Part shown: piece by piece, positions 59,701-61,848 of the stretch | How the letters are laid out: the number at the start of each line of letters is the position of its first letter | Position numbering within the stretch: position 1 is the first letter of the stretch | Source of the DNA: a virus | Direction: 5' to 3' (one strand) | IMG/VR virus record: IMGVR_UViG_3300027795_000039 | Coordinates: 1-64,000 of that record | Length of the DNA: 64,000 nt | The notes under the pieces: generated by a model | The model's input: the letters and a program-made list of their open reading frames with translations, nothing else | What the model was told of the DNA's origin: nothing | Databases searched by the model: none | Translations under genes and position numbers: made by a program

Positions 59701-61848
59701 GCGGGCGGCAAGTAGTCAACACCAGTTGGTGTTTCTACAGGCCGAAGCCATTCTTTACGTCGTTGCCACTGAGCGAGAGCAATTTCACTGAGATTTTCTT
59801 TCCATACTGGATCATTCCAGAATTTTCTCTGTGATTCATACCACGCTTCAGTATGACGAGAACCGTTACATCCACGTTTCTGGATTTCGATGCCAGCTTC
59901 TACGAGCCACTTGCGTGCCTCGCCATAGTTAACACCGTATTTTGCGCCAAGCTTTCGCAAGCCGCCGGTTTCTTCGTAATCCTGTTGAAGCTGTTCTTTG
60001 CTAAGTGATGTGCTGCGTGTAGTCTCTACGGAGTCCCCAGGCTCTGGGGTTCCCTCGGTATTGTCCATTAATTTTATCCTACCACATGGTAGGGAGAGGA
60101 GTCCACCGATATAGCAGCATTGTCATCTGCCTGTTACCAAGCAGCGGGGCCTCGAAGATAACTTTTAGTAATAGAAAGTTACTCTCTGTTAACCCTGGCC
60201 GGCGAATTGCGCCAACCACGAAAGCGCTTCGGTCAAACCGAAGAAACGGTCATTTTGTTACTCATCGTTTAAAAAACGATGGGACTAGTCATTTCTGCTA
60301 GTCTCTACGTGTTTCCACGCAGATCAGACTATACCATAATCTGATGTAAATCAGACTCCGCGCGTCTAGTCGTTACGGACTCGCCAATCACTGGATGCAA
60401 TTGGATTGCCTCGGTATTGTCCACATAACCACTGATTTTCATCAATGCGAAGGAGTTTCACCGATACAGCGCGGTTTGCACTCACACATTACTGCATGAG
60501 GCCCCTACCATTCTTCATAGCGAGGGAACGTTCAAATCTACTTCCGTCTGCGAGCCAGACGGCGGTAGATTCATGGGCCAGTTCGTCGCACTCATGGTCC
60601 CAGAGTTTTGTACCAACTCTGGTATACTTATATCGACGACCCCTTGACCACCAGTTTGTGATCCACTGATGCCCGTGAACACCTTCGCTTGCCGTGCGGT
60701 ACCTTGACCAGCAGGACGAGGAAGCTTATTACGAAACACCGTATACACTGGATTGTGCTGTTACCTTCACGATCACTCGTGACGGGCTGGTCATCTCTGC
60801 CAGCCTCTTACGCTTTGACGTAAGACCAGACCATATCTTCGCCCGCCTCAGCGGGGTCGCGTGCATGGTCGTTGAACCTTCCCATTCTCATCCCGAGGAG
60901 TGGGCTCGGCTGCTGATCATCCCTACCACGTATTTCTCAAGCATTCGCGCTCATGTTTTCACATCACGCTGTAGCATACGTGTCTAACAGGAGGTTCCAG
61001 CAATTCTCGCGATTTAATCACGCTCATTACTGAGCGGAGATCCCTCCACTTGAGATCAGCCGCGAAGGTGCGACACTACTTCGCATTCAAGTGGAAGACA
61101 CACGCGTTACCGCGTGAGGACCCCATCGCAATGAAAGGTCGAACGGAACAAGGCCGGACACTGATCCAATGCCAAGTGCTAATTGTTACTCATCACATAG
61201 TGTGATGGGCCTGGTTGTTTCCACCAGACTCTGCAATTTTACCATCATTGCAGTTCGGAACGTCTCATGATCCATAAACGTTGTACTGTAGCATCTCAAT
61301 ACGCGATTCATCATGGATCCAGTACATACGTTCTCTGCACTACGATAGATGCCATCGTAGCTCAGGATTACCCATAATATGGAGGGCTTCCCCTGAACAG
61401 TACTGTTATCAGCTACTCGTTACCGAGTGGCGGGGCCACTTGACCCAGCAGTGAAACTTTTGGCAACTTCCGCCCCACCCGGCATGCTCGCCAGCAGCTT
61501 CTGGATCTGCTCAACAGGCGACGGGGTGTTTAGCGCAGTTGAGAGAAAACCTCTTTGCGCTAGGAAATCTGGACTCATACCCTTAACAACACTCGGGCGG
61601 TCCGTCAGACCTTGGTAGATCGACGTCCTGAGATCCAGCGTTGCCTGTGCTGATCGCATCAGGATTTCGCCTGGGTCGCTCAGCGGCTGGTTGAGGCCCT
61701 GGGCGTAGGTACAGCCCTTGACCAGGGTGGGCATACGCGACTTGATAACGTCGCTTACTGAGCCGGAGCGGTGTGCTTCGACTGCAGCCTCCCGTCCCGG
61801 GAGGCTAAGGTCGGGTCCAATCGGGACCTCGACGGTGGTGGTAGCCAT
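56717..61848 (-). CDS. Major capsid protein, 11 exons, 608 aa after splicing
   Basis: Exons 61848-61443, 61178-61136, 61075-61053, 60753-60523, 60250-60192, 59223-59171, 58906-58066, 57764-57746, 57440-57374, 57101-57048, 56747-56717 sum to 1827 nt in one frame; includes capsid-like GLVPFDLVAPSRLIYPVYTVFRNKLPR and VVHPWL; capsid identity is from motif recall and position. Confidence 0.8.
56748..57047 (-). ncRNA. Group I intron 10 (300 nt)
   Basis: P1 GGCCU/GGGUC with U.G; GAGAAUUGCUGGAA, AAUCAGCAGC, GGUUCAACGACUA, AGAGAGAGUC; terminal G. Confidence 0.9.
57102..57373 (-). ncRNA. Group I intron 9 (272 nt)
   Basis: P1 CCU/GGG; CUGUUCAGGGAA, AAUCCUGAGC, GCAGAGACUG, AGAGACAGUCC; terminal G. Confidence 0.88.
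57441..57745 (-). ncRNA. Group I intron 8 (305 nt)
   Basis: P1 GACCU/GGGUC; same core family as intron 10; terminal G. Confidence 0.9.
57765..58065 (-). ncRNA. Group I intron 7 (301 nt)
   Basis: P1 CGCU|AA/UUGGCG; same core family as intron 10; terminal G. Confidence 0.9.
58907..59170 (-). ncRNA. Group I intron 6 (264 nt)
   Basis: P1 GAU|CA/UGGUC; same core family as intron 9; terminal G. Confidence 0.88.
59224..60191 (-). ncRNA. Group I intron 5 (968 nt, ORF-containing)
   Basis: P1 GGGU/GCCC, 9-bp P10 UUCGAAGAU/AUCUUCGAG; CCGUAGAGACUA, GAUAUAGUCC; terminal G. Confidence 0.9.
59253..60068 (-). CDS. Intron-encoded DUF559-like endonuclease/maturase
   Basis: YYVDVLL...LAIEID...R..EIRDSGIEIVRF; ORF overlaps the ribozyme core at both ends. 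Confidence 0.7.
   Translation of the reverse strand: MDNTEGTPEPGDSVETTRSTSLSKEQLQQDYEETGGLRKLGAKYGVNYGEARKWLVEAGIEIQKRGCNGSRHTEAWYESQRKFWNDPVWKENLSEIALAQWQRRKEWLRPVETPTGVDYLPPAEAELQDALKRASVSFTSNAIVLRGKYYVDVLLHDRLLAIEIDAKPDRVMEEYNVKRSREIRDSGIEIVRFAAEDIFAHADECVRSLSIPAEENPECTIRSPQRTYGLLRSAQVGRRKSDDDIVRSALMEKMQKQAEMTCSPDDDNESK
60251..60522 (-). ncRNA. Group I intron 4 (272 nt)
   Basis: P1 CCCU/GGGG; CUGUAUCGGUGAA, AAUACCGAGG, CCGUAACGACUA, GGUAUAGUC; terminal G. Confidence 0.9.
60754..61052 (-). ncRNA. Group I intron 3 (299 nt), predicted terminal A
   Basis: P1 GAUCU/GGAUC; full core; frame and P10 (UCCA/UGGA) put the 3' end at ...UAACAGCACA|AUCCA. Confidence 0.8.
61076..61135 (-). ncRNA. Core-less 60-nt group I mini-intron (intron 2)
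   Basis: P1 GACCU/GGGUC, 7-bp P10 UGUCGCA/UGCGAUG, P2 CACGCG-GUAA-CGCGUG, terminal G, in-frame TGA, no P3-P9. Confidence 0.75.
61179..61442 (-). ncRNA. Group I intron 1 (264 nt)
   Basis: P1 GGGU|CA/UGGCCC, 5-bp P10 CACUU/AAGUG; same core family as intron 9; terminal G. Confidence 0.9.

What the first reader, a model, noticed from the sequence alone, without database searches (positions are those of the whole stretch)
60754..61135. Core-less 60-nt mini-intron apparently serviced by the neighbouring ribozyme: one group I core, two ordered splicing events
Seen: between capsid codons ...GAC CT and T GTC GCA... lies a 60-nt insert (61135-61076) with an in-frame TGA, so it must be removed to make capsid. 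It has all the substrate parts of a group I intron: P1 with the U.G pair (GACCU/GGGUC), a 7-bp P10 aligning the next exon (UGUCGCA/UGCGAUG), a GUAA-capped P2 like its neighbours, and a terminal G. It has no P3-P9 catalytic core. Where the core should be, it carries UCUUCCACUUGA, complementary to UCAAGUGGAGGG, which spans the 5' splice site and guide sequence of intron 3, plus UGCGAAG, which pairs with CUUCGCG in the 23-nt exon 3. This hairpin would block intron 3's own P1 and leave the mini-intron's terminal G in a loop. Inference: intron 3's core first docks the mini-intron's P1/P2 and excises it, which destroys the blocker; intron 3 then splices itself. Intron 1 also starts U|CAAGUGG, so it is an alternative partner. 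I know of no described non-autonomous, cis-dependent group I element of this kind.
Basis: partly seen in the sequence, partly recalled or inferred. Interest (0 to 1): 0.97.

Follow-up and report, generated by a model that had tools for sequence, protein, structure and literature searches.

The report
Core-less mini-intron beside a ribozyme
A 60-base insert that breaks a soil phage's capsid gene has the splice-site helices of a self-splicing group I intron but no catalytic part, and it is base-paired to the complete intron 23 bases downstream, which most likely cuts it out.

Summary
Removing 61135-61076 (60 nt) and 61052-60754 (299 nt) restores ...PFDLVAPSRLIYPVYTV..., a stretch of fixed length in 120 of 120 intron-less homologues. 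All 11 exons join into a 608-aa frame.

The insert has a P1 helix with a U.G pair, a 7-bp P10, a GUAA-capped P2 and a terminal G. It has no P3-P9 core and no Rfam match. Shuffles gave P1, P10 and a final G together in 9 of 200,000.

A second phage (L006, with L060 identical here), about 30% diverged in DNA, has the same layout: 53-nt mini-intron, 23-nt exon, full intron. Compensatory changes occur in P2, P10 and the hairpin joining the mini-intron to the exon and to intron 3's 5' end. L006 has no intron 1, so intron 3 is the conserved partner.

Splicing itself, its catalyst and its order are inferred. No RNA run was listed.

Tiny degenerate group I introns are published for fungal rDNA. This scan has already noted similar core-less mini-introns in at least ten other phage genomes. 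I rate it a well-supported new variant of a known kind. Intron 3 here ends in A, not G.

The parts
61136..61178 (-). Exon 2 (43 nt, ...LGIGSVSGLVPFD-L). Its last five bases GACCU (61140-61136) form the 5' strand of the mini-intron's P1.
   Evidence: tblastn with P0001/P0003/P0005; exon model; coordinates checked.
61076..61135 (-). Core-less mini-intron, 60 nt. It holds the P10 guide (61130-61124), P1 guide GGGUC (61123-61119), P2 with GUAA loop (61116-61101), helix X 5' strand (61098-61087), helix Y 5' strand (61085-61079) and terminal G (61076). About 48 of its 60 nt are assigned to a pairing.
   Evidence: No Rfam family at E<=10 over 61040-61460.
61053..61075 (-). Exon 3, a 23-nt micro-exon coding (L)VAPSRLI(Y). 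It holds the P10 target UGUCGCA (61075-61069), helix Y 3' strand CUUCGCG (61067-61061) and the 5' strand of intron 3's own P1, GAUCU (61057-61053).
   Evidence: 7 of 7 residues identical to P0001; invariant spacing in 120 homologues.
61042..61053 (-). Helix X 3' strand, UCAAGUGGAGGG. It covers the last exon-3 base, intron 3's 5' splice site, its P10 guide UGGA (61048-61045) and part of its P1 guide GGAUC (61043-61039).
   Evidence: 12-bp pairing in the minimum-energy fold; one double-sided and two one-sided changes against L006.
60754..61052 (-). Intron 3, a full group I intron of 299 nt with P2 at 61036-61021 (GUAA loop). It is the candidate catalytic partner. Its last base, 60754, is A.
   Evidence: RF00028 50.7 bits at 60807-61067, model 1-253. 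Boundaries come from the homologue frame and the L006 alignment.
60523..60753 (-). Exon 4 (231 nt). It starts AUCCAGUG, and UCCA pairs with intron 3's UGGA (P10).
   Evidence: L006 has UCCG/CGGA at the same place.

Best explanation
The 60-nt insert is a group I intron that has lost its catalytic core, probably by an internal deletion. It kept only what a group I ribozyme needs in a substrate: P1 with the U.G pair, the P10 guide, a GUAA-capped P2 and a terminal G.

Its 3' half, the 23-nt exon and the first 11 bases of intron 3 form one long hairpin (helices X and Y). This hairpin ties the mini-intron's P1-P2 domain to the foot of intron 3's P2. It also hides part of intron 3's own P1 guide and its P10 guide. 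The mini-intron's terminal G and the P10 target sit in the hairpin's end loop.

Proposed steps, all inferred:
1. Intron 3's core docks the mini-intron's P1.
2. Guanosine cleaves after GACCU.
3. The mini-intron's terminal G enters the G-site, and exon 2 is joined to exon 3.
4. Loss of the mini-intron dissolves the hairpin, so intron 3 can form its own P1 and splice.
5. This order keeps the 23-nt exon from being skipped.

Shown here: the anatomy, the need for removal, and conservation with covariation.
For: 1. Removal is required. Homologues read straight across the site. The 11-exon model gives 608 aa with only the terminal stop and 485 of 610 aligned columns identical to P0001.

2. Group I substrate features occur together far above chance: 9 of 200,000 shuffles.

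3. A second lineage has the same layout. L006 has a 53-nt mini-intron at 4344-4396, a 23-nt exon, and a full intron scoring 65.7 bits on RF00028. L060 is identical over this region.

4. DNA identity between the window and L006 is similar inside and outside the element: mini-intron 40/61, exon 3 19/23, intron 3 221/305, exon 4 160/231, exon 7 628/859. The arrangement is therefore old and maintained.

5. Double-sided compensatory changes occur in P2a (2), P10a (1), helix X (1) and P2b (2). Helix Y is kept at 7 of 7 pairs in a register shifted by 3 nt. There, a synonymous TCG to TCA change in the exon is matched by a change in the intron.

6. The minimum-energy folds of both phages give the same four parts: P1a, P2a, the X-Y hairpin and P2b (z = -2.8 and -5.0, 0 of 200 shuffles as stable).

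7. L006 has no intron 1, so the downstream intron is the only conserved neighbour.

8. The full-length tandem pair intron 7/8 has no such hairpin.

9. The mini-intron's nt 10-38 align collinearly with P1-P2 of intron 7 (23/29). Its nt 13-51 align with intron 8 as far as the P3 5' strand. This fits a deletion derivative of a sibling intron.

10. Engineered tandem Tetrahymena introns flanking a 24-nt exon can act as one large ribozyme, and Twort orf142 skips a 23-nt exon (PMC10136302, introduction, section 3.2 and discussion read).

11. From recall, not from a call: group I cores can cleave a P1 hairpin supplied separately (Szostak 1986; Doudna et al. 1989).
Against: - No RNA evidence was obtained for this phage or for L006.
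- Only two independent lineages were found, so each covariation is a single event. The tool counted L006 and L060 as two rows although they are identical in this region.
- A neighbouring core acting on P1a would be expected to favour exon skipping, as in the engineered system. Inclusion relies on the untested P10a and terminal G.
- The terminal G lies at the tip of a hairpin of about 19 bp. Whether it can reach intron 3's G-site cannot be judged from secondary structure.
- After in-script removal of the mini-intron, the minimum-energy fold does not show intron 3's P1, though P1 helices are rarely predicted.
- In L006, helix X stops 2 nt short of the 5' splice site, so 'blocking' is partial there.
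- Intron 3 in the window ends in A with a normal G-C pair at the G-binding position (my reading of the alignment), so its own second step is unexplained.
Confidence: 0.55

Rival explanations
1. The mini-intron is removed by group I chemistry, but the catalyst is another ribozyme acting in trans. This could be any of the eight other full introns of the same transcript, or excised intron RNAs. On this view the X-Y hairpin only prevents mis-splicing or exon skipping.
For: The transcript carries nine full-length introns. Intron 8 uses the same P1 pairing, GACCU/GGGUC. Intron 1 shares the 5' sequence CAAGUGG. Local alignment shows the mini-intron's P1-P2 is closest to introns 7 and 8.
Against: L006 keeps the mini-intron with only two other introns. 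It has no intron 1 and no intron 7/8 equivalents. The only conserved neighbour, and the only one with conserved base pairing, is intron 3.
Confidence: 0.2
2. The mini-intron is an autonomous minimal group I ribozyme that uses exon context, as claimed for the 67-nt PaSSU intron of Phialophora.
For: PaSSU-type introns (56-81 nt) are described with P1, a hairpin called P7, P10 and a pairing between mid-intron and the 3' exon. PaSSU is reported to splice in vitro when about 300 nt of exon are present (PMC3160393, abstract, background and discussion read). The layout resembles P1a, P2a, P10a and helix Y here.
Against: There is nothing here resembling a G-binding site or J8/7, and no Rfam match. The element pairs extensively with a complete ribozyme 23 nt away in both lineages. 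Autonomy would not explain that.
Confidence: 0.07
3. The 60 nt are removed, or tolerated, by some other route. Candidates are endonuclease plus RNA ligase, ribosomal bypass as in T4 gene 60, or TGA read-through. Alternatively the allele is defective or mis-assembled.
For: The insert is a multiple of three with a single TGA. No RNA data exist.
Against: - L006's insert is 53 nt, so read-through cannot be general.
- TGA ends 20 of 49 reading frames of 250 or more codons in this genome.
- The window has no landing codon matching the take-off CUU before GUC GCA.
- In L006, landing on CUU would lose one residue from a stretch of invariant length.
- An independent assembly is identical.
- About 30% DNA divergence with compensatory changes argues against a dead allele.
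- The boundaries are U.G and terminal G, with P1 and P10, which are the marks of group I chemistry.
Confidence: 0.1

Closest known systems
Small 'degenerate' group I introns of fungal nuclear SSU rDNA (Phialophora PaSSU, 67 nt; Arthonia and Porpidia; 56-81 nt). Source: PMC3160393, abstract, background and discussion read.
   Same: Similar size. They have P1 and P10, one central hairpin and a pairing between mid-intron and the 3' exon (their 'PM', my helix Y). They lack P3-P6, P8 and P9. A proposed origin is deletion from a full intron. A non-G last base occurs in that class (omega U), as it does in this window's intron 3.
   Different: They lie in eukaryotic rDNA, not in a phage protein gene. 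They are reported as self-splicing with the help of exon context. They have no adjacent complete ribozyme and no pairing to one.
Tandem group I introns flanking a very short exon: phage Twort orf142 (23-nt exon, exon skipping), Coxiella 23S rRNA (34-nt exon) and engineered tandem Tetrahymena introns. Source: PMC10136302, sections read. For Coxiella, only the paper's title was seen, in a reference list.
   Same: Two group I elements separated by about 23 nt of exon. Parts of the two introns cooperate as 'a single large ribozyme'. In Coxiella, one of the two lacks the canonical omega G.
   Different: In those cases both introns have complete cores, and the cooperation yields exon skipping. Here the upstream element has no core and the short exon must be retained.
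Trans-splicing (split) group I introns and bimolecular T4 td / Tetrahymena ribozyme systems (recalled, not from a call).
   Same: Catalysis acts on a P1 substrate domain that is not covalently continuous with the core in the normal order.
   Different: Split introns rebuild one core from two halves. Here the mini-intron contributes no core piece at all, and a second, complete intron with its own splice sites would supply the core.
Group III introns of Euglena plastids (recalled, not from a call).
   Same: Stripped-down relatives of a self-splicing class that are thought to depend on trans-acting help.
   Different: They derive from group II introns, use different chemistry and are organellar.

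Membership tests
Group I intron (RF00028; self-splicing) | P1 helix with a U.G wobble at the 5' splice site, formed with an internal guide | tested here: met
   GACCU/GGGUC in the window and in L006 (5 of 5 pairs invariant).
Group I intron (RF00028; self-splicing) | P10 between the guide just 5' of the P1 guide and the start of the 3' exon, plus a terminal G | tested here: met
   UGCGAUG/UGUCGCA, 7 of 7, and G at 61076. L006 has CAAUG/CCUUG, 4 of 5, and a terminal G. The guide differs where the exon differs.
Group I intron (RF00028; self-splicing) | Conserved catalytic core P3-P9 with a G-binding site in P7 | tested here: not met
Group I intron (RF00028; self-splicing) | Guanosine-initiated self-splicing | not testable with these tools
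   Needs in vitro transcription and splicing. No RNA run was listed.
Fungal small degenerate group I introns (PaSSU type) | 56-81 nt with P1, a hairpin ('P7'), P10 and a pairing of mid-intron with the 3' exon | tested here: inconclusive
   Size and layout match (60 and 53 nt; P1a, P2a, P10a, helix Y). Homology cannot be tested, and the setting and the extra pairing to a neighbouring intron differ.
Programmed translational bypass (T4 gene 60 type) | Matching take-off and landing codons flanking the gap | tested here: not met
   In the window, take-off CUU has no matching triplet before GUC GCA. In L006, a CUC to CUU hop would delete one residue from a stretch of invariant length.
Twintron (intron within an intron) | One intron nested inside another | tested here: not met
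   The two elements are separated by 23 nt coding VAPSRLI, which is identical to homologues.

The most novel reading that the evidence does not exclude
One ribozyme core serves two introns in a fixed order. A core-less, non-autonomous group I intron is excised by the core of the next intron downstream. A conserved switch hairpin tethers the borrowed substrate, silences the helper's own P1 until the mini-intron has gone, and so protects a 23-nt exon from skipping. This would be a natural step from self-splicing towards shared, trans-acting splicing machinery.
Probability: 0.5. Interest if true: 0.9.

Novelty: new variant of a known kind. Interest (0 to 1): 0.8.

Why it matters
Group I introns are defined by carrying their own catalyst. 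A maintained intron that keeps only the substrate helices and depends on a neighbour's core would show how selfish self-splicing elements decay into dependent ones. This parallels the step proposed between group II introns and spliceosomal introns.

It also has a practical side. Gene callers and Rfam both miss such inserts, so capsid genes like this one are annotated as fragments.

This locus is a good test case for three reasons:
- A second diverged lineage is available for compensatory-mutation design.
- The pairing between mini-intron and helper is long and easy to mutate.
- The whole unit is under 400 nt, so a single in vitro transcript would settle the catalyst and the order of events.

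Tried and rejected
Searches of the 'phages' collection with the region and with two exons found nothing: blastn distant and tblastn.

Pattern scans for more carriers gave the following.
- Intron 3 junction in viral contigs: only the L006 contig.
- Mini-intron P1-P2 pattern in viral contigs: the L006 contig plus L059, an unrelated chance hit.
- The same kind of pattern in metagenome contigs: only L060, which equals L006 over this region.
- Genome contigs: 0 hits.
- A looser P2 pattern in viral contigs: the L006 contig plus L098, unrelated.
- Junction pattern in genome contigs: 9 hits, none in a capsid context.

In the 51 of 57 capsid loci where the APSRLI motif was found, only L006 has it as an isolated micro-exon.

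One search examined 16 gaps with 5 or more missing residues. Inserts flanking micro-exons there were 262-1345 nt, except 53 nt in L006/L058/L060 and 0 nt in L010.

37 loci fetched with P0140 gave no intron at FDL|L. So the hint of a full-length intron at that exact site rests on a protein fragment only (P0140, 'MASNKNW-LAPSRLIY').

No RNA holder was listed. The one run laid is DNA contigs and is probably the source.

A fold after in-script removal of the mini-intron did not show intron 3's P1, so I take nothing from it.

Papers. Searches for 'mini-intron', 'core-less', 'non-autonomous intron' or 'helper intron' together with 'group I intron' found no description of a phage core-less group I intron. 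These searches cover only the held library, and supplements are closed. The Coxiella paper was not held.

I considered and rejected TGA read-through, ribosomal bypass, a twintron, an assembly error and a dead allele. The reasons are under rival explanations.
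Full report
**What is there**

The window is the first 64 kb of a single 132,026-bp virus contig. 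On the minus strand, from 61848 to 56717, lies a capsid-type gene. Exons 4 and 7 match phrog_13692 (E = 9e-5 and 3e-25).

A search with the largest exon found 454 proteins at E<=1e-3. The 120 listed are uninterrupted proteins of 572-629 aa. tblastn of three of them against the window maps 11 coding pieces. Joined in a script, these pieces are 406, 43, 23, 231, 59, 53, 841, 19, 67, 54 and 31 nt. They give 1827 nt and 608 codons with only the terminal stop. 485 of 610 aligned columns are identical to P0001, with 5 gap columns.

All ten 5' exons end in U. Nine of the ten inserts end in G.

Rfam RF00028 finds six of the inserts at E<=1. Introns 1 and 6 are not found, but they align over their full length with intron 9 at 76% mean column identity.

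**The finding itself**

Between ...CCG UUC GAC CU and U GUC GCA... lie 60 nt (61135-61076). Homologue P0001 reads ...GLVPFDLVAPSRLIYPVYTVFRN... The window encodes GLVPFDL, then the 60 nt, then VAPSRLI on a 23-nt exon (61075-61053), then intron 3, then (Y)PVYTVFRN.

The spacing D/N-L-x-APS-x-x-x-YP-x-YT is the same in all 120 listed homologues. Of these, 73 matched my pattern, and I read the other 47 by eye in the same output. So both the insert and the micro-exon are real, and the 60 nt must be absent from the mature message.

About 48 of the 60 nt are taken up by the P10 guide, the P1 guide, P2 with its GUAA loop, two further helix strands and the final G. No room is left for P3-P9. No Rfam family matches at E<=10 over 61040-61460.

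In 200,000 shuffles of the insert:
- 25,703 had a P1 with U.G;
- 28 also had a 7/7 adjacent P10;
- 9 also ended in G.

A Logan contig of the one run that holds the region is identical over 56600-61900. That run is DNA from soil and is probably the source sample. I therefore see no sign of an assembly error, though this is not independent material.

**A second lineage**

Among 57 capsid loci from viral contigs, the APSRLI motif was found in 51. Only L006 has it as an isolated micro-exon. L006 reads GACCU | 53 nt | CCUUGCACCUUCACGGCUGAUCU | full intron | AUCCGGUC (corrected coordinates 4344-4396, 4397-4419 and 4420-4716). Its downstream intron scores 65.7 bits on RF00028. L060, from a metagenome contig, is identical over the region.

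DNA identity between the window and L006 is:
- mini-intron: 40/61;
- exon 3: 19/23;
- intron 3: 221/305;
- exon 4: 160/231;
- exon 7: 628/859.

The element is as diverged as the gene around it. The arrangement is therefore old and maintained, not a fresh deletion.

Counted on the alignment, double-sided changes occur in P2a (2 of 6 pairs), P10a (1), helix X (1 of 12, plus two one-sided) and P2b (2 of 6). 90.4% of cells are paired, against 31-50% when the partner is slid by 1-3 columns. The tool treated L006 and L060 as two rows although they are the same here, so each change is one event.

Helix Y fails in the MAFFT columns but is 7 of 7 in L006 in a register shifted by 3 nt (CGUGAAG/CUUCACG). 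There, a synonymous TCG to TCA change in the exon is matched by a change in the intron.

The base in intron 3 that pairs in helix X (U in the window, C in L006) also pairs with the third position of the Pro codon at the start of exon 4 (UCCA against UCCG). One intron base thus tracks two partners.

RNAfold gives both phages the same four-part structure: P1a, P2a, a long hairpin and P2b. The long hairpin is made of the mini-intron's 3' half, the exon and the 5' end of intron 3. The z-scores are -2.8 and -5.0, and none of 200 shuffles was as stable.

**Which partner**

L006 has no intron at the intron 1 site, because tblastn runs unbroken over residues 4-152. It has only one other intron, far downstream. 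The downstream intron is therefore the only conserved neighbour and the only one with conserved pairing.

The window's other short-exon pair is intron 7, a 19-nt exon and intron 8, both full length. It folds with intron 8's P1 free and shows no comparable hairpin. So the X-Y hairpin goes with the core-less state, not with tandem introns in general.

**Origin**

The mini-intron's nt 10-38 align collinearly with nt 9-37 of intron 7 (23 of 29). Its nt 13-51 align with nt 9-49 of intron 8, running on through what in intron 8 is J2/3, the P3 5' strand and GAAU. This suggests a sibling intron that lost everything from P4 to near its 3' end.

A protein fragment from another metagenome begins MASNKNW-LAPSRLIY (P0140). 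That reads like the usual ...AGUAACAA... intron tail running into the same FDL|L junction.

**Mechanism**

This part is inferred. The best reading is that intron 3's core docks the mini-intron's P1-P2, carries out both steps using the mini-intron's own terminal G and P10, and only then splices itself. Meanwhile the hairpin tethers the substrate and hides intron 3's P10 guide and part of its P1 guide.

Precedent exists for neighbouring group I introns acting together across an exon of 23-24 nt, in Twort orf142 and in engineered Tetrahymena pairs. In those cases, however, the outcome is exon skipping (PMC10136302). Here the exon codes invariant residues and must be kept. That is what P10a and the hairpin would be for.

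I cannot judge from secondary structure whether the terminal G at the hairpin tip can reach the G-site. No RNA run was listed.

**Rivals**

- Read-through fails because L006's insert is 53 nt. TGA also ends 20 of 49 long frames in this genome.
- Bypass fails for lack of a matching landing codon.
- A trans-acting sibling ribozyme remains possible.
- Autonomy of the PaSSU kind remains possible too, but less likely.

**An unexplained detail inside the finding's coordinates**

To give ...RLIYPV..., intron 3 must end at A 60754 (...GGUAACAGCACA|AUCC). In L006 and in the window's siblings the same position is G. Using G 60758 instead would shift the frame into a stop.

In the Rfam alignment, by my reading against the Tetrahymena numbering recalled from memory, the G-binding pair of P7 looks normal. 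A non-G last base is published for a Coxiella intron, for which I saw the title only. It is also published for PaSSU, which has omega U.

**Comparison and novelty**

Published tiny group I introns exist in fungal rDNA, with a similar layout including a pairing to the 3' exon. They stand alone. My searches of the held library found no description of a phage core-less group I intron or of one serviced by a neighbour.

This scan's own notes list similar mini-introns of 38-51 nt just upstream of full introns in at least ten other phage genomes. Three of those notes report RNA that lacks the insert. These are unchecked leads, not evidence for this locus.

What this locus adds:
- the largest such element so far, with a full P2;
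- a long, covarying hairpin linking it to its presumed helper;
- a helper whose own last base is A.

Noticed in passing
window 56717-61848 (minus strand): The capsid gene is split by ten inserts into 11 exons of 406, 43, 23, 231, 59, 53, 841, 19, 67, 54 and 31 nt. Nine inserts are full-length group I-type introns of three sequence sub-families (1/6/9; 3/7/8/10; 4/5). This is an unusually high number for one phage gene.
   Followed up: yes
window 60754: Intron 3 ends in A where L006 and the eight other full-length introns of this gene have G. The frame and P10 (UCCA/UGGA) fix this junction. The G at 60758 would give a frameshift and a stop. How exon ligation proceeds is unexplained.
   Followed up: partly
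window 61179-61442 and 58907-59170: Introns 1 and 6 are missed by RF00028 (intron 1 even at E<=10, intron 6 at E<=1). Yet they align over their full length with intron 9, which scores 48.8 bits, just under the gathering score.
   Followed up: partly
window 57441-57764: Intron 8 uses the same P1 pairing as the mini-intron (exon GACCU with guide GGGUC). It follows a 19-nt micro-exon (57764-57746) that separates it from intron 7. No blocker hairpin is predicted there.
   Followed up: partly
window 59253-60122 and 55843-56640: There are two related endonuclease-like ORFs with weak DUF559 / REase_MTES_1575 / HNH-phrog matches. One lies inside the 968-nt intron 5. The other is free-standing, just downstream of the capsid stop codon.
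   Followed up: no
proteins P0121-P0196 and loci L001-L097: In relatives, the 25-residue stretch GLVPFDLLAPSRLIYPVYTVFRNK is an intron hot-spot. Fragments and loci show inserts at PF|DL, DL|L, AP|S, R|L or L|I, PV|Y and TV|F. Micro-exons of 30-36 nt occur in L048 and L094.
   Followed up: partly
window 61178-61173 and 61092-61087: Exon 2 begins CACUUG, the P10 target of intron 1, and the same hexamer occurs inside the mini-intron's helix X strand. After in-script removal of the mini-intron, the minimum-energy fold pairs exon 2's CACUUG with intron 3's CAAGUG.
   Followed up: no
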